From IMG/VR virus record IMGVR_UViG_2740892423_000023, positions 1 to 34,951 of that record: 34,951 nucleotides of DNA; one strand, 5' to 3'. Source of the DNA: a virus (taxonomy: Duplodnaviria; Heunggongvirae; Uroviricota; Caudoviricetes). A program made the position numbers and the translations under genes. The notes under the pieces were generated by a model. That model searched no databases and was not told the DNA's origin. It was given only the letters and a program-made list of their open reading frames with translations. Positions 3,551 to 24,005 of this stretch are shown here, piece by piece (the first letter of the stretch is position 1; every line of letters begins with the position of its first letter).

Positions 3551-3900
3551 TACATAATCCTCACAGGGTGTTCAAACGTCTGCGGTGTGCCCGCGTTATC
3601 CGTGACGGTGATTAACAGCAACAGCCAGCCGCGCTGGCCCACTTTCGTGTCAACGGTAATGGCTGTCGCCCGCCCGTCATCAAGCAGGGGCTGAAGTGCC
3701 TGGCTGGCATACTGCGCCGCCAGCCTGTGGACACGGGAAACGTCTTTTTCCCGCTTCAGCTCGTGCAGGCGTGACCCCAGCGACGCATCCGCCCAGTAAC
3801 TGCCAAGCGGTGTCGCCAGTCGCAGATAAACCGCGTTATGGAGTGTATAAATCCGGCGGCGTTCGTAGTCGCCGGTTGCAGGTGAAATCGTCTGGTCCAT
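3550..3900 (-). CDS. Baseplate protein, phage GP46 family (Mu gp46-like)
   Basis: 116-aa ORF MDQTISPATGDYERRRIYTLHNAVYLR between spike and J genes. Confidence 0.7.
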   Translation of the reverse strand: MDQTISPATGDYERRRIYTLHNAVYLRLATPLGSYWADASLGSRLHELKREKDVSRVHRLAAQYASQALQPLLDDGRATAITVDTKVGQRGWLLLLITVTDNAGTPQTFEHPVRIM

Positions 3901-3953
3901 GCCGCCAGTCTGGCAGCATGGACAGGTCAGAATCAGGTGAGGGTGTTCAGCAC

Positions 3954-4607
3954 TTAATTATGCGGCAGGCCAGATATGCCGTGAGGGGTATCGTGTTTAT
4001 GCGTTCCGATTTTAACGCCATTAATGGTGACGTCAACGGAGGTAATCACACCTCCCACATGGTTGATATTGCCTTCAAAGGTGGCGGCGTATTCCTTGCC
4101 TCCACGGATGGCCATGCCACCGTTGCCGGTGATTTTACCTTCCACCGTCAGCTTATCGCTGGCCGTCAGTAACGGTGTCGTGAATGCGGCGTTCTCCTCT
4201 GCCTCAACCTCATAGCGTTTGCATTTCACCCGGTAAACGTCACATTCGGTTTCAACAATCCGCCCGCGCTTCAGTACGATTTTCGCGCCTTCGTCGGTAT
4301 ACAGGGCCACCTCGCCGGGTTTCAGTTCCGTCAGGCGATATGCGCCGTGCTCTGTGGCCACGACGACGGTATGGGAGGTATTACCATTCAGCGGAACGGC
4401 AATACCCATCGAGCCGGGCGGCGGGGATGTGGTGAGGCCGTAATGCTGAAAATACTCCGCACCGTCCAGCTGTTCGCCTGCCAGCCCGTTCAGCTGAAGT
4501 AGCTGTACTTTGGTCGAACTGTCCACCGTACCGGTCACCACCCTGAATGCCTGGCGAACGGCGGCCAGTGCCTGCTGTATGCGCTGATTAACCTTGTCCC
4601 ACATCAT
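3954..4607 (-). CDS. Baseplate spike/assembly protein V-like (Mu gp45-like)
   Basis: 217-aa ORF; gpV-like pattern with C-terminal THKHDTPHGISGLP; ATGA overlap with upstream gene. Confidence 0.75.
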   Translation of the reverse strand: MMWDKVNQRIQQALAAVRQAFRVVTGTVDSSTKVQLLQLNGLAGEQLDGAEYFQHYGLTTSPPPGSMGIAVPLNGNTSHTVVVATEHGAYRLTELKPGEVALYTDEGAKIVLKRGRIVETECDVYRVKCKRYEVEAEENAAFTTPLLTASDKLTVEGKITGNGGMAIRGGKEYAATFEGNINHVGGVITSVDVTINGVKIGTHKHDTPHGISGLPHN

Positions 4608-21709: not shown

Positions 21710-21892
21710 TCAGCTCTGTGAACACTGCCGGATGCCGTCAATAATCCGGCAGACCTGCGCCGCCGCGTCAAACAGCTGGCCCGCCCTGTTAATGTCTGTG
21801 CATCCCACCGGAAGCAACATCATCAGAAACAGGGCCAGAACACAGCGCGCGGCTTTACGTGGCGTTCTGTGGGTCCAGTGACTTCTGTTCAT
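21710..21892 (-). CDS. Small predicted lipoprotein (possible o-spanin-like lysis protein)
   Basis: 60 aa: basic N-region, hydrophobic CVLALFLMMLLPVG followed by Cys (lipobox-like), directly after endolysin. Confidence 0.45.
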   Translation of the reverse strand: MNRSHWTHRTPRKAARCVLALFLMMLLPVGCTDINRAGQLFDAAAQVCRIIDGIRQCSQS

Positions 21893-21905
21893 AACCCGTC
21901 CCGCA

Positions 21906-22283
21906 TCAGCGTTTTAACTGGAAATGAGGCCCGTCTTTCAGCGTTTTCCAGTCTCCGCCCCATTCGATGGCGACACCCAGCTCTGCGGCAGCCTGTTTAA
22001 AGGCACGGGCGATTTTTTCGTATAACGGCCAGTCCCATGAAATGGTGCTACCAACGTAAGCCACGACATCAACGGCATCGCCAGTAAGGTGACGGCTGTT
22101 CATGGTCTGGCTCTTGCCTTCAGCGACAAGTTGTTTCTGACGTTCTTTCGTGCGTAAACCTTCGGTAATACCAAAATCGACGTCCGACAACGCCAGCGCA
22201 CGGCGTACAACCGCCACCAGTTGTGGCTTTACGCCAGCCAGATTTTTCTCGCTACGTTGACTGAAACGGAATTTTTCCGACAT
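21906..22283 (-). CDS. Endolysin, peptidase M15-like (L-alanyl-D-glutamate peptidase type)
   Basis: ORF 21906-22334; start refined to ATG 22283 (MSEKFRFSQRS) with GGAGGT RBS; SRHLTGDAVDV and WGGDW...DGPHF motifs. Confidence 0.75.
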   Translation of the reverse strand: MSEKFRFSQRSEKNLAGVKPQLVAVVRRALALSDVDFGITEGLRTKERQKQLVAEGKSQTMNSRHLTGDAVDVVAYVGSTISWDWPLYEKIARAFKQAAAELGVAIEWGGDWKTLKDGPHFQLKR

Positions 22284-22285
22284 AT

Positions 22286-22564
22286 TTACCTCCGCAGTAA
22301 CGAAAGGATTTTTGACAAATTCCCGTGCGCCCACACGATAAGCGCACAGAAAACCAGATTCAGCGCCACAACCAGCCAGCTGGAGTGCGTGTATGTACCG
22401 GACAGCCAGCGGAACGGGATGATGATGTAGCCGAGCATCAGCCAGTACGCCAGCCAGGTAATCATCGGCTTATGCGCCGCACCGTGGCGACGATACACAA
22501 ACAACCCCAGCACAATGGCGAGACACAGCCAGACGTTCACGATACCGGCAAGGCTACTTTCCAT
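22286..22564 (-). CDS. Holin-like membrane protein (3 predicted TM helices)
   Basis: ORF 22286-22570; ATG 22564 with GGAGGGGG RBS; three hydrophobic segments and basic C-terminus; precedes endolysin. Confidence 0.5.
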   Translation of the reverse strand: MESSLAGIVNVWLCLAIVLGLFVYRRHGAAHKPMITWLAYWLMLGYIIIPFRWLSGTYTHSSWLVVALNLVFCALIVWAHGNLSKILSLLRR

Positions 22565-22946
22565 TTCCACCCCCTCCGCCGCGCAGTCTGGAAAACAGGC
22601 CGAACAGCGATGAAATTTCCTGTTGATAAAGAAAGGTCAGTATCTTGATGGATAACGCCGAGACACCGACCGCACACAATGCATCGAGCGGCTTGTCGTT
22701 GTAGTGGGTCAGCCACTGCATCAGTGACGCAGCCACGCCAGCCCCCAGAACGCCAACCACAAACGCGACGAGCAGGTGGATGGCCATTCGCCAGACCGGG
22801 ATTTCTTTCTGTTGCGTGACAACAAAAAGCGCCCCGGCAAACGCGCCCACCACGACCCCGAAATCGGTATTGGTGAGAAGACCAAACACACTGGCACCAC
22901 CGATGGTGACTGCCACAGCTCCGCCGCCTGATAAGGGTTCAGACAT
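22554..22946 (-). CDS. Membrane protein (about 4 TM helices), possible holin/antiholin
   Basis: ORF 22554-23006; ATG 22946 (MSEPLSGGG) with AGGAG RBS; Gly/Ala/Val-rich hydrophobic segments. Confidence 0.45.
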   Translation of the reverse strand: MSEPLSGGGAVAVTIGGASVFGLLTNTDFGVVVGAFAGALFVVTQQKEIPVWRMAIHLLVAFVVGVLGAGVAASLMQWLTHYNDKPLDALCAVGVSALSIKILTFLYQQEISSLFGLFSRLRGGGGGNGK

Positions 22947-23081
22947 GAGTTTCTCCTGTAAATCTGAGCCACTGACGGCCCGTAAATAACACCCTGTCAA
23001 AGGCACAAAAGCCTTTTGCAGGGCGCTATCCCTTAAGGTGCCTTGTGGTCTGAGTGGACAGGGTAAACGGTCTGGTGTGGT

Positions 23082-23108
23082 GGGTACTGCTGGGGGTGTT
23101 CAGCACCC
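23082..23108 (-). promoter_or_regulatory. Conserved 27-bp late-region motif upstream of lysis genes
   Basis: Minus-strand GGGTGCTGAACACCCCCAGCAGTACCC; 23 of 27 positions identical to the site upstream of I. Confidence 0.45.
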
Positions 23109-23133
23109 CCGGCAGGTTGATTAGCTGGATGGG

Positions 23134-23421
23134 TTAAAGGGAAGCGAGTTTTAATGGTGGCTTATAACACGCCTGCGCAAGCAGGTTAGCTCTTTCCACG
23201 GCTTTACGCATTTCCCGTTCTGCGTCCAGCATCCTGTTTACGGCTGACAGCACTTCATTATGATTCGTTTCTGACTCCGGCCTTTGGGCCTGTCTCGCCA
23301 GATAACTGGATAAATTACATATCTCAGCATGTCGGCGACGGGCTGCATCCCGGGCCTTGTCTGAAAATGCGGTATATTCACCGAGTGCTGCGTAGTCGAT
23401 ATTGGTGTCAGAACTCATCAT
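23134..23421 (-). CDS. Hypothetical protein (95 aa)
   Basis: ORF with AAGGAGA RBS immediately after the mor terminator; no family recognised. Confidence 0.5.
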   Translation of the reverse strand: MMSSDTNIDYAALGEYTAFSDKARDAARRRHAEICNLSSYLARQAQRPESETNHNEVLSAVNRMLDAEREMRKAVERANLLAQACYKPPLKLASL

Positions 23422-23448
23422 TTCGTGTCTCCTTTTTTCTGAGTCTCA

Positions 23449-23916
23449 TTAATCAAAAAGCCCCACCTGGGTGGGGCTTTTCAGCGAAGTCTGTTTTTGT
23501 CGTCGGTGTATCAGTTGCCATGCGTACCGGTCTGAAATGCCGTAACGGGGACAGAGCAGTGCCAGCGCCTGCCGGTGTGAGCATCCGCCTTTTACATGCT
23601 GCTGTAAATCAGCCATAAAACGGGTGTTACGCAAGGCACGTAACGCATGATCGCAACGGGGAATGTAAAACGGTGCGCCGCCAAGAAAACGGATCAGTTT
23701 GTTGATTTCGTCTTCGGTCAGCACGTCATGTAACAGGGCATGGACACCGCCGGTTCGTTCGGCGTGTGCGCCGGTTTTACCGCTTAACGTCACGCCACCA
23801 AAAGAACGGATTAACCGGGTCAGGGCGGGGAAGCCAATCACGCTAATCAGTTGCTGCACGGAATCAGGCAACAGTGCCTGCGCATCGCGAAGATCTGTTT
23901 CACTGAAGGTCTGCAT
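23449..23916 (-). CDS. Mor/C-family transcriptional activator (only copy in window)
   Basis: 155-aa ORF with GGAGA RBS; C-terminal region ...FYIPRCDHALRALRN...RYGISDRYAWQLIHRR resembles the Mor/C DNA-binding region. Confidence 0.75.
   Translation of the reverse strand: MQTFSETDLRDAQALLPDSVQQLISVIGFPALTRLIRSFGGVTLSGKTGAHAERTGGVHALLHDVLTEDEINKLIRFLGGAPFYIPRCDHALRALRNTRFMADLQQHVKGGCSHRQALALLCPRYGISDRYAWQLIHRRQKQTSLKSPTQVGLFD
23455..23482 (-). terminator. Intrinsic terminator, bidirectional-type, overlapping last codons of the Mor/C gene
   Basis: AAAAAGCCCCACC-TG-GGTGGGGCTTTT; minus-strand hairpin followed by UUUUUGAUUAA; Mor stop at 23449. Confidence 0.7.
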
Positions 23917-23945
23917 GATGGCGTCTCCGGTAGTAACTTACTGTT

Positions 23946-23951
23946 ATTATA
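23946..23951 (-). promoter_or_regulatory. Consensus -10 hexamer (TATAAT on minus strand) upstream of the Mor/C gene
   Basis: Minus-strand GGCTATAATAACAG about 30 nt upstream of ATG 23916; weak -35 (TGTACA) 16-17 bp upstream. Confidence 0.4.
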
Positions 23952-23979
23952 GCCATACATGATCGCCTGTACAGACCAC

Positions 23980-24005
23980 AAAAAAGCCCCTGCAAGGCAG
24001 GGGCT
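23980..24005 (-). terminator. Intrinsic terminator between GemA and Mor/C genes
   Basis: Minus-strand AGCCCCUG-CCUUG-CAGGGGCU (8-bp stem) followed by UUUUUUGUGG. Confidence 0.65.

What the first reader, a model, noticed from the sequence alone, without database searches (positions are those of the whole stretch)
23082..23108. Lysis-operon copy of the late motif, with a downstream 13-bp palindrome
This is the second copy of the motif above, about 135 bp upstream of the first lysis-cassette start codon (22946). A separate near-perfect 13-bp palindrome CAAAAGCCTTTTG (23006-23018) lies between the motif and the RBS. The different spacing from the I-gene copy (about 35 bp there) suggests a longer leader or additional control on lysis timing.
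Basis: seen in the sequence. Interest (0 to 1): 0.35.

Follow-up and report, generated by a model that had tools for sequence, protein, structure and literature searches.

The report
Mu-like prophage late lysis promoter
The motif is the activator-binding half of the promoter that switches on the lysis genes late in the growth of a Mu-like E. coli prophage, and the nearby palindrome is only the tip of a hairpin that arrived with a lysis cassette shared with lambda-like phages, so the feature is real but ordinary.

Summary
The window is a Mu-like prophage of E. coli with all genes on the minus strand. The motif GGGGTGCTGAACACCnnCnnCAGTACCC occurs exactly twice, before the lysis genes and before protease gene I. 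A shorter third copy lies before the gp46-like baseplate gene.

Its conserved core is a 16-bp imperfect dyad, GCTGA-N6-YCAGC. A yAnnnT hexamer follows at a fixed distance, which places the dyad at about -43.5. This is the published layout of Mor/C-dependent promoters of phage Mu. The phage's single Mor/C-family gene lies just upstream.

The same layout precedes the lysis and I genes in eight diverged relatives, including Salmonella, Serratia, Xenorhabdus and Aeromonas. A profile built only from those relatives finds exactly these three sites in the window.

The 13-bp palindrome occurs at chance frequency and is intact in only 6 of 15 close relatives. It is the tip of a stable leader hairpin shared with lambdoid prophages such as phiP27. 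There, two hairpins with T-runs precede the holin. Here the T-runs are interrupted or deleted.

The long lysis leader (about 107 nt) is therefore supported. An extra control on lysis timing is untested.

The parts
23449..23916 (-). Gene for the phage's only Mor/C-family activator (155 aa), the presumed binder of the motif
   Evidence: Pfam PF08765 Mor: 29.1 bits against a cutoff of 24.9, E = 1e-6. PHROG 836 'late transcriptional activator': E = 1.2e-42. PGAP annotates it as 'Mor transcription activator family protein'. The C-terminal QVGLFD aligns with the QPDLF clamp-binding motif of MuC (PMC12867686).
23134..23421 (-). 95-aa ORF of unknown function between the activator gene and the lysis promoter
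   Evidence: No Pfam hit. PHROG 7152, unknown function, E = 1.9e-50. Other E. coli relatives carry an unrelated ORF here, and their homology to the window starts at the motif.
23082..23109 (-).
   Evidence: Exact pattern match, two per window, 0 expected.
23089..23104 (-). 16-bp imperfect dyad GCTGA-ACACCC-CCAGC, the proposed binding site for an activator dimer, centred at about -43.5
   Evidence: GCTGAA is invariant, and C12, C17 and (T)CA(G/A)C are conserved, in 15 sites from 8 diverged prophages. The profile hit at 23059-23107 scores 18.0 bits, E = 1.3e-4.
23087..23115 (-). 12-bp-arm inverted repeat CTGCCGGGGGTG ctgaa CACCCCCAGCAG overlapping the dyad; specific to the lysis copy
   Evidence: pair I2, 92% complementary. 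Unique in the window. As RNA it folds to -21 kcal/mol, z = -3.8, with no U-run after it.
23060..23065 (-). Predicted -10 hexamer TACCCT
   Evidence: A yAnnnT hexamer starts exactly 39 nt after the G of GCTGAA in all 18 aligned promoter copies. Its A (position 2) and T (position 6) are invariant, at 2.0 bits each.
23051..23055 (-). Predicted transcription start of the lysis operon (inferred, not mapped)
   Evidence: Standard 5-9 nt distance downstream of the -10 hexamer. This gives a leader of about 107 nt to the ATG at 22946.
22984..23031 (-). Leader hairpin 1 (12 + 6 base pairs); its tip carries the palindrome
   Evidence: -28.2 kcal/mol, z = -6.9. It is homologous to a hairpin followed by a T5-T9 run upstream of the holin in lambdoid prophages. 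The change CCCTG/CAGGG to CCCGG/CCGGG in relatives is compensatory.
23006..23018 (.). 13-bp palindrome CAAAAGcCTTTTG from the finding
   Evidence: Present. Chance frequency. Not conserved among close relatives. Created by loop shortening: GGCATCTGCGGGTGCC in the lambdoids is GGCTTTTGTGCC here.
22966..22981 (-). Leader hairpin 2, GGGCC gtcagt GGCTC, without a T-run
   Evidence: -7.9 kcal/mol. The lambdoid homologues read GGGCCGCTGGTGGCCC TTTTTTATTT and are called terminator-like. No terminator-like site is called in the window leader.
22953..22957 (-). Shine-Dalgarno AGGAG of the first holin gene
   Evidence: Read from the sequence. Conserved in all homologues.
21906..22946 (-). Lysis cassette: holin (PF16931), second holin (PF05449), M15 endolysin
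   Evidence: The same cassette lies downstream of Q and tRNA genes in lambdoid prophages and in Stx2e phage phiP27.
15785..15842 (-). Gene I copy: motif 15842-15815, dyad 15837-15822, hexamer CATCAT 15798-15793, ATG 15785
   Evidence: Profile hit of 19.6 bits, E = 3.9e-5.
3895..3955 (-). gp46 copy: dyad 3951-3936, hexamer CAGACT 3912-3907, ATG 3900, and a hairpin at 3923-3895 that includes the start codon
   Evidence: Profile hit of 15.4 bits, E = 9e-4, from a model that contained no gp46 sites. Hairpin covariation and fold.

Best explanation
The motif is the upstream half of an activator-dependent late promoter, the counterpart of Plys of phage Mu.

How it most likely works. The phage's single Mor/C-family protein (gene at 23916-23449) binds as a dimer to the imperfect dyad GCTGA-N6-CCAGC (23104-23089). 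That dyad is centred about 43.5 bp upstream of the start. The bound dimer enables sigma-70 RNA polymerase to use a promoter that has a -10 hexamer (TACCCT, 23065-23060) but no usable -35. Transcription starts near 23053 and reads the holin-holin-endolysin cassette.

The same promoter type drives protease gene I and the gp46 baseplate genes. The window therefore has three late promoters.

Why the lysis leader is long (about 107 nt). The lysis cassette, together with about 85 bp upstream of its ATG (homology runs up to about 23029), is shared with lambdoid prophages. There, two hairpins followed by T-runs precede the holin ribosome-binding site, downstream of a Q antiterminator gene in one context examined. 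In the Mu-like lineage the T-run of hairpin 2 is deleted and that of hairpin 1 is interrupted. The loop of hairpin 1 is also shortened, and this by chance produces the 13-bp palindrome.

Shown here: the sequences, the copies, cross-genus conservation with fixed spacing, the family of the activator, the homology and the differences of the leader.

Inferred: activator binding, the exact start site, activator dependence, and the direction of the cassette exchange.
For: (1) The motif occurs exactly twice, with 0 expected. A third core copy exists.

(2) Eight prophages have activators only 51-82% identical to the window's. They include Salmonella, Serratia, Xenorhabdus and Aeromonas. Every intergenic GCTGAA[CG]C[CT] site downstream of the activator gene (15 of 15) lies upstream of the lysis genes or of gene I. 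Each carries a yAnnnT hexamer starting exactly 39 nt after the G. The 3 other matches are inside genes and lack the hexamer.

(3) In the alignment, GCTGAA, C12, C17, and the A and T of the hexamer are invariant, while the 23-nt spacer is variable.

(4) With the hexamer at -12 to -7, the 16-bp dyad spans -51 to -36, centred at -43.5. [quoted passage not shown]

(5) A sequence profile built only from the 15 foreign sites finds three full-length hits in the 35-kb window: I at 19.6 bits, lysis at 18.0 and gp46 at 15.4. The next hit is a partial match of 7.9 bits.

(6) The activator belongs to the Mor/C family. Its C-terminal QxGLF aligns with the clamp-binding motif of MuC (PMC12867686).

(7) In other E. 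coli relatives the homology to the window begins at 23113/23109, the upstream edge of the motif. The motif therefore travels with the lysis module.

(8) Leader: DNA homology to holin regions of lambdoid prophages begins at 23029-23006. One such context (L002) lies downstream of Q and tRNA genes, and phiP27 carries the cassette after tRNA and stx2e genes. The alignments show two hairpins plus T-runs in the lambdoids. Hairpin 2 is called terminator-like there, whereas nothing is called in the window leader.
Against: No transcript 5' end, binding or expression data exist for this phage. The start site, and with it the -43.5 position, rest on a predicted -10 hexamer (TACCCT, 3 of 6 matches to TATAAT).

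The right half-site is imperfect here (CCAGC). It is poorer at gene I (TCCAC).

The lysis copy also forms a strong hairpin (-21 kcal/mol), so a role at the RNA level is not excluded.

The recognition sequence does not resemble the Mu C-dependent promoter region read in Plys. The activator is only 20-28% identical to Mu Mor and C.

The direction of the cassette exchange (lambdoid to Mu-like) is inferred from distribution and from T-run loss. It is not demonstrated.
Confidence: 0.78

Rival explanations
1. Leader hairpin 1, whose tip is the palindrome, is not a vestige. It is a working attenuator, meaning a partial intrinsic terminator or an mRNA-stability or translation element. It would limit read-through from the activator-orf95 unit and tune the level or timing of holin expression.
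For: The hairpin is very stable (-28.2 kcal/mol, z = -6.9). A fully compensatory change keeps the outer stem in relatives: T-A becomes G-C, that is CCCTG/CAGGG becomes CCCGG/CCGGG. G-U wobbles appear in lambdoid homologues, which fits an RNA-level structure. A U-rich tail, UUAUUU, remains. No canonical terminator separates orf95 from the holin.
Against: The T-run is interrupted in all 14 Mu-like relatives that keep the hairpin. One relative (L022) lacks both hairpins and keeps the promoter and the holin. The terminator scan calls nothing here. The 'compensatory' pair could have come in by recombination with a lambdoid allele that already has CCGGG, such as phiP27.
Confidence: 0.3
2. The 12-bp-arm inverted repeat around the lysis copy acts as the 3'-end or terminator hairpin of the upstream activator-orf95 transcript. 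This role would replace, or add to, that of a promoter element.
For: -21 kcal/mol, z = -3.8, located 19 nt after the orf95 stop. In the other relatives a hairpin of different geometry also abuts or overlaps the left side of the lysis copy. In Mu the annotated terminator after C overlaps the start of the annotated Plys promoter feature.
Against: No U-run follows it. The I and gp46 copies keep the sequence without such a hairpin. What is conserved across genera is sequence plus spacing to a -10 hexamer, not the structure. At most this is an added role.
Confidence: 0.15
3. The 13-bp palindrome is an operator for a dimeric DNA-binding protein that controls the lysis genes.
For: Perfect 6-bp arms, located between the promoter and the ribosome-binding site.
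Against: Chance frequency: 7 in the window against 8.5 expected. It is broken in 8 of 14 near-identical relatives that keep the hairpin and absent in L022. It is absent in the lambdoid homologues, where the loop is 4 nt longer. Its centre (23012) differs from that of the conserved hairpin (23007.5).
Confidence: 0.04
4. The repeated motif has no regulatory role. It would be a recombination joint or a remnant of a duplication.
For: Homology to other E. coli relatives starts exactly at the motif.
Against: The core and its spacing to the hexamer are conserved where the flanks are unalignable, across at least five genera, always on the coding strand in front of late operons.
Confidence: 0.03

Closest known systems
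[quoted passage not shown]
   Same: A Mor/C-family activator gene sits directly upstream of the lysis genes. The site is a 16-bp imperfect dyad at about -43.5. There is a -10 hexamer but no usable -35, and a C-rich spacer. Several copies precede the lysis, head (I) and baseplate operons. A hairpin overlaps the upstream edge of the lysis promoter. Sources: PMC2582627, PMC4461284.
   Different: The recognition sequence is different: GCTGA-N6-TCAGC, against the TTAT...ATAA-containing region of Mu Plys. The window has one activator gene instead of the Mor-then-C cascade. The third promoter lies between gp45 and gp46, not inside gene N. The I and gp46 start codons lie 6-7 nt after the hexamer with no Shine-Dalgarno sequence, whereas Mu I has a leader of about 25 nt and an RBS. 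No mom gene or promoter is seen in the window.
Phage Mu middle promoter Pm, activated by Mor
   Same: The same protein family and the same promoter architecture: a dyad just upstream of a poor -35 (10.1101/2025.05.02.651988; PMC4287176). The window protein is about as distant from Mor as from C.
   Different: Pm drives the middle operon that contains C. Here the motif drives late operons directly. The activator's own gene is preceded by a terminator and a TATAAT without this motif.
Terminator-like hairpins before the holin of lambdoid prophages (for example Stx2e phage phiP27), presumably read through by Q-modified polymerase
   Same: About 70-76% DNA identity from hairpin 1 through the holin genes. 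Both hairpins, the ACGGGCCG...GG(C/T)C core and the AGGAG ribosome-binding site are conserved.
   Different: Lambdoid copies carry T5-T9 after hairpin 1 and TTTTTTATTT after hairpin 2, and hairpin 2 is called terminator-like. The window has TTATTT and AGATTT. No Q gene is annotated in the near-identical prophage stretch examined, which runs from the transposase gene to the head genes. That the lambdoid hairpins terminate, and that Q overrides them, rests on established lambda biology and was not tested here.

Membership tests
Mor/C-dependent promoter of Mu-type transposable phages | The phage encodes a Mor/C-family activator | tested here: met
   PF08765 at 29.1 bits, above the cutoff of 24.9. 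PHROG 836 at E = 1.2e-42. The gene lies 25 bp upstream of orf95 and 340 bp upstream of the motif.
Mor/C-dependent promoter of Mu-type transposable phages | An imperfect dyad-symmetry element of about 16 bp centred near -43.5, just upstream of or overlapping the -35 region | tested here: met
   GCTGA-N6-YCAGC spans -51 to -36 when the conserved hexamer is placed at -12 to -7. The position depends on a predicted start site, not a mapped one.
Mor/C-dependent promoter of Mu-type transposable phages | A recognisable -10 hexamer and no typical -35 hexamer | tested here: met
   TACCCT here, and yAnnnT with invariant A2 and T6 in 18 of 18 copies. The -35 region reads AGTACC. The sigma-70 consensus scan finds no promoter on this strand.
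Mor/C-dependent promoter of Mu-type transposable phages | Several copies in front of the late operons (lysis, head, tail) | tested here: met
   Three full-length profile hits, before the holin, I and gp46 genes, and nothing else above 8 bits.
Mor/C-dependent promoter of Mu-type transposable phages | The activator binds the dyad, and transcription depends on it | not testable with these tools
   Needs EMSA or footprinting and reporter or in vitro transcription assays.
Mor/C-dependent promoter of Mu-type transposable phages | Sequence similarity to the Mu C or Mor sites themselves | tested here: not met
   The Mu Plys and PI regions share no GCTGAAC core, so the specificity is different. This affects 'same site', not 'same kind of promoter'.
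Intrinsic (Rho-independent) terminator, applied to leader hairpins 1 and 2 | A G+C-rich stem-loop immediately followed by a run of T/U | tested here: not met
   The stems are present, but the tails are TTATTTAC and AGATTTAC, and no site is called in the leader. The lambdoid homologues of hairpin 2 meet the criterion.
Q-type antitermination module of lambdoid phages | A Q antiterminator gene upstream of the terminators and the lysis genes | tested here: not met
   Q is present in a lambdoid context. None is annotated in the Mu-like prophage stretch from the transposase gene to the head genes. The tail half of the window was not annotated for this.
Palindromic operator | The palindrome is conserved in relatives that keep the regulated gene | tested here: not met
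   Intact in 6 of 15 close relatives and absent from the lambdoid homologues.
Known RNA families (Rfam 15) | A match to a curated covariance model | tested here: not met
   No hit at gathering score in the whole window. No hit at E <= 1 in 22850-23200.

The most novel reading that the evidence does not exclude
In this clade of Mu-like phages the activator-dependent late promoters may start transcription on the start codon itself for two of the three late operons (I and gp46). This would give leaderless mRNAs. At gp46 a covarying hairpin would hide the AUG in read-through transcripts, so that only promoter-initiated transcripts are translated. The lysis operon is the exception, with a long leader. 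Its hairpin, derived from lambdoid terminator-like hairpins, would have been retuned into an attenuator that sets lysis timing.
Probability: 0.3. Interest if true: 0.6.

Novelty: new member of a known kind. Interest (0 to 1): 0.3.

Why it matters
It gives a usable rule for locating late promoters and the late regulon in a widespread group of Mu-like prophages: GCTGA-N6-TCAGC, then 23 nt, then yAnnnT. The lysis region of this prophage is found in 117 of 5,426 complete E. coli genomes, including STEC isolates, and related prophages occur in Salmonella, Serratia, Xenorhabdus and Aeromonas.

It shows that a Mor/C-type activator can keep the promoter geometry known from Mu while using a different recognition sequence.

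It also documents that a lysis cassette shared between lambdoid and transposable phages carries its upstream leader with it. The T-runs that follow the leader hairpins in the lambdoid copies are missing in the phage that has no antiterminator. For the specific finding the result is mostly clarification: the motif is explained and the palindrome is incidental.

Tried and rejected
(1) First reading of the motif as an RNA hairpin or terminator because of the 12-bp arms. Rejected as the main role: the I and gp46 copies lack the hairpin and no U-run follows it.

(2) A -10 element directly after the motif (TACCCA or GATTCT), or an ECF-sigma-like GAAC...TCTGA promoter. Rejected: those positions are not conserved across genera and the spacing does not fit. 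The only conserved downstream block is the hexamer 39 nt after the G of GCTGAA.

(3) A sigma-70 promoter inside the leader, using the TTGACA in the 3' arm of hairpin 1. No -10 follows at 16-18 nt, and the scan finds nothing on this strand.

(4) An N-terminally extended holin starting at the in-frame GTG at 23006. Rejected: the homologues differ in this stretch by indels that are not multiples of three.

(5) A fourth motif copy at 21629-21571, found with a loose regular expression. Rejected: it lies inside an ORF and gets no profile hit.

(6) Searches that gave nothing: megablast of 21800-24000 against the phage collection; the search for related loci with the single activator protein in genome contigs; Rfam; a literature search for leaderless mRNAs in Mu-like phages.

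(7) I could not reconcile my own reading of the TTAT...ATAA symmetry in Mu Plys (centre about -46 from a predicted start) with the published -43.5. I therefore cite the published value and allow +/-2 bp on all positions.

Full report
WHAT THE WINDOW IS. The region 21800-24000 is 99.2% identical to a prophage of E. coli STEC316, and matches are found in 117 of 5,426 complete E. coli genomes. PGAP annotates that prophage as Mu-like. The gene order is: Mu transposase, AAA ATPase, GemA, a 'Mor transcription activator family protein', a hypothetical protein, two holins, an M15 peptidase, DUF1804, TerL, a DUF935 portal protein, a Mu F-like protein, a virion morphogenesis protein, the phage protease I, and Mu gpT. 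In the window all of these genes are on the minus strand. Pfam confirms Mor (PF08765), the two holins (PF16931, PF05449), Peptidase_M15_4, the Mu-like I protein, and Mu Gp45 and GP46.

CHECK OF THE OBSERVATION. On the minus strand, 23109-23082 reads GGGGTGCTGAACACCCCCAGCAGTACCC. The pattern GGGGTGCTGAACACCNNCNNCAGTACCC matches exactly twice, at 23082-23109 and 15815-15842, with none in 100 shuffles. The lysis copy ends 136 nt before the holin ATG at 22946. The I copy ends 29 nt before the ATG used by PGAP (15785).

A third copy of the core, AAGTGCTGAACACC, lies at 3955-3942. It sits between the stop of the gp45-like gene and the ATG of the gp46-like gene at 3900.

The palindrome CAAAAGcCTTTTG at 23006-23018 is exact. 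Palindromes of this type (6+1+6) occur 7 times in the window against about 8.5 expected, so it is not remarkable by itself. It lies inside a larger imperfect inverted repeat with arms at 22986-23004 and 23011-23029.

WHAT THE MOTIF IS. I collected prophages whose Mor-family protein is 51-82% identical to the window's. They come from Salmonella, Serratia, Xenorhabdus, Aeromonas and several metagenome or read-archive assemblies.

In all of them a GCTGAA(C/G) core lies upstream of the lysis genes, and in the seven whose contig reaches gene I it also lies upstream of that gene. I listed, without any filter, every GCTGAA[CG]C[CT] downstream of the activator gene in the eight loci. Fifteen of the 18 matches are these intergenic sites. 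All 15 carry a yAnnnT hexamer that starts exactly 39 nt after the G. The three others lie inside genes and lack the hexamer.

In the ungapped alignment, GCTGAA, two further C positions, and the A and T of the hexamer are invariant. The 23-nt spacer is variable but C-rich. The consensus is GCTGAACCCcCTCA(G/A)C, an imperfect inverted repeat of GCTGA and TCAGC separated by 6 bp.

If the hexamer is taken as the -10 element (-12 to -7), this 16-bp dyad spans -51 to -36 and is centred at -43.5. The Mu literature describes exactly this. [quoted passage not shown] The cryo-EM preprint on Mor and C likewise places the dyad just upstream of a non-optimal -35 (10.1101/2025.05.02.651988).

As an independent test I built a sequence profile from the 15 foreign sites only and scanned the whole window with filters off. 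It gave three full-length hits, all on the minus strand: I at 19.6 bits (E = 3.9e-5), lysis at 18.0 bits (E = 1.3e-4) and gp46 at 15.4 bits (E = 9e-4). The next hit is a partial match of 7.9 bits. The gp46 site was not represented in the training set.

THE ACTIVATOR. The 155-aa protein passes the Pfam Mor threshold. It matches PHROG 836, 'late transcriptional activator'. It is only distantly related to Mu Mor and C: BLASTP E-values of about 1e-4, and 20-28% identity in the alignment.

Its C-terminal QVGLFD aligns with the C-terminal QPDLF of MuC. Q150 and L153 are invariant in the alignment. MuC uses that motif to bind the beta sliding clamp, and this is required for late transcription (PMC12867686).

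Only one Mor/C gene was identified in the window. The Xenorhabdus relative has two. The recognition sequence does not resemble the Mu Plys or PI regions that I read from AF083977.

THE LYSIS COPY IN DETAIL. The dyad is GCTGA-ACACCC-CCAGC at 23104-23089. The hexamer TACCCT is at 23065-23060. The predicted start is near 23053, which gives a leader of about 107 nt.

It is shared only by the lysis and I copies of the E. coli lineage and of L026. It is absent from the gp46 copy and from the other genera.

The lysis copy also lies inside a 12-bp-arm inverted repeat at 23087-23115. As RNA this folds to -21 kcal/mol and has no U-run after it. In the other relatives a hairpin of different geometry also abuts or overlaps the left edge of the lysis copy. 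In Mu the annotated terminator after C overlaps the start of the annotated Plys feature. A secondary role as the 3' hairpin of the upstream transcript is therefore possible.

In a second class of E. coli relatives the gene upstream is different, and homology to the window starts at 23113/23109, the edge of the motif. The promoter belongs to the lysis module.

THE PALINDROME AND THE LONG LEADER. A sensitive search of E. coli genomes with 22850-23200 gave a third class of 218 genomes at 60-80% identity. Their homology starts at 23029-23006, in the hairpin region, and continues into a 'putative holin'.

These are lambdoid-type prophages. In one context the cassette lies downstream of antiterminator Q and tRNA genes. 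In Stx2e phage phiP27 it lies after tRNA and stx2e genes.

Alignment of ten sequences shows two conserved hairpins between the upstream gene and the holin ribosome-binding site. In the lambdoid copies hairpin 1 (AAAGGCAUC-UGCG-GGUGCCUUU with an outer ACACC/GGUGU stem) is followed by T5-T9. Hairpin 2 (GGGCCG...CGGCCC) is followed by TTTTTTATTT and is called terminator-like by the scan.

In the window and in all Mu-like relatives that keep the region, three things differ. The T-run after hairpin 2 is gone (AGATTT). The T-run after hairpin 1 is interrupted (TTATTT). The loop of hairpin 1 is 4 nt shorter: GGCATCTGCGGGTGCC has become GGCTTTTGTGCC. That last change creates CAAAAGGCTTTTG. No terminator-like site is called in the window leader.

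Fifteen IMG/VR relatives with a 92-100% identical activator contain the region. The palindrome is intact in 6 of them, reads ..TTCTG in 3, is replaced by AAAAGTCATTCT(G/T)TG in 5, and is deleted together with both hairpins in 1 (L022). The palindrome is therefore incidental.

The hairpin itself is stable: -28.2 kcal/mol, z = -6.9. The whole leader folds to -45.2 kcal/mol, z = -4.4. Its outer stem shows one fully compensatory change among relatives, CCCTG/CAGGG to CCCGG/CCGGG. A residual role as attenuator or stabiliser cannot be excluded. I give it about 0.3.

The lysis cassettes of the relatives from other genera are different (PF05106, PF04971 and others) and have short, unrelated leaders. 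All of them sit behind the same promoter type. The unusual spacing at the lysis copy thus reflects module exchange, not a special design of the promoter.

COMPARISON WITH WHAT IS KNOWN, AND NOVELTY. The promoter has the architecture of Mu Plys, PI, PP and Pmom and meets every feature of that class that can be tested by sequence. It differs in four ways:
- the recognition sequence;
- the apparent one-step cascade, with a single activator;
- the position of the third promoter (in Mu, PP lies inside gene N);
- the lack of leaders at I and gp46.
I file it as a new member of a known kind. Rfam has nothing here. I found no paper in the searchable library that describes this motif.

SIDE OBSERVATIONS. 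At gene I the start codon lies 6-7 nt after the hexamer, with no Shine-Dalgarno sequence. This holds in the window and in all seven relatives that reach gene I. The same holds at gp46 in nearly all of 52 distinct upstream sequences from 80 IMG/VR loci, including phages that have other upstream motifs. Both mRNAs are therefore predicted to be leaderless. Mu itself has ordinary leaders and ribosome-binding sites at both genes.

At gp46 the hexamer forms the loop and closing pair of a hairpin that includes the AUG (3923-3895; -26.2 kcal/mol, z = -6.3). On 34 sequences, 82.6% of cells are paired, against 28-38% when the partners are slid. There are 30 double-change cells, and 0 of 500 shuffles reach the observed score. 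The closing A-U pair is invariant, whereas most of the other stem pairs vary, five of them through changes on both sides. This invariance fits a constraint from -10 recognition. These points are recorded below and were only partly followed up.

VERDICT. Interest is modest.

Noticed in passing
window 3895-3955 (- strand); loci L040-L119: A third late promoter lies between the gp45-like and gp46-like genes. The gp46 ATG (3900) follows the hexamer CAGACT by 6 nt and has no Shine-Dalgarno sequence. The hexamer and the start codon sit in a hairpin, GTCCATGCTGCCA-gac-TGGCGGCATGGAC. This hairpin covaries across 34 diverse Mu-like phages (82.6% of cells paired against 28-38% when slid; 30 double changes). 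This suggests leaderless translation from the promoter transcript and a hidden AUG in read-through transcripts.
   Followed up: partly
window 15785-15798 (- strand); L024, L027-L032: The start codon of protease gene I lies 6-7 nt after the conserved hexamer (CATCAT, TACGCT or TATGCT), with no Shine-Dalgarno sequence, in the window and in seven diverged relatives. This predicts a leaderless mRNA. Mu gene I has a leader of about 25 nt and an annotated RBS.
   Followed up: partly
window 15872-15902 (- strand): An AT-rich tandem element, CGTTTTTAAAAGGGTTTTAAAAACGGTTTTA, lies about 35 bp upstream of the gene I dyad. A similar element is present in all relatives that reach gene I. It is in the same G-I intergenic position where the Mu record marks the gyrase cut site, and the Mu sequence there has similar TTTTTAAA(A/C)CG repeats. 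It may be a counterpart of the strong gyrase site.
   Followed up: no
window 23946-24005 (- strand): A canonical intrinsic terminator (AGCCCCTGC cttg CAGGGGCT TTTTTT, 24005-23979) directly follows GemA. A perfect TATAAT without a -35 follows at 23951-23946, ahead of the activator gene. The activator gene and orf95 look like a separate 'middle' unit. Its own activation is unexplained, since only one Mor/C-family gene was identified in the window.
   Followed up: no
window 23452-23469 (- strand; residues 150-155 of the activator): The C-terminal QVGLFD aligns with the C-terminal clamp-binding motif QPDLF of MuC and is conserved in all relatives (PMC12867686). The window protein and its relatives have no counterpart of the N-terminal QHDLF stretch of MuC.
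   Followed up: partly
window 21906-23031; L002, L003, L035, L036: The holin-holin-M15 endolysin cassette and about 85 bp of its upstream leader are shared, at about 70% DNA identity, with lambdoid prophages, Stx2e phage phiP27 and an Actinobacillus phage record. The holin CDS of phiP27, as annotated, starts just upstream of the terminator-like hairpin and so spans it.
   Followed up: partly
L031 10679-11968: A related Mu-like prophage carries a T6SS Hcp gene and a Tlde1-domain gene as cargo between the activator gene and its lysis promoter.
   Followed up: no
L022 10793-10900: One close relative has a short lysis leader without either hairpin and a better -10 hexamer (TATCCT). It is a natural deletion control for the function of the hairpins.
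   Followed up: no
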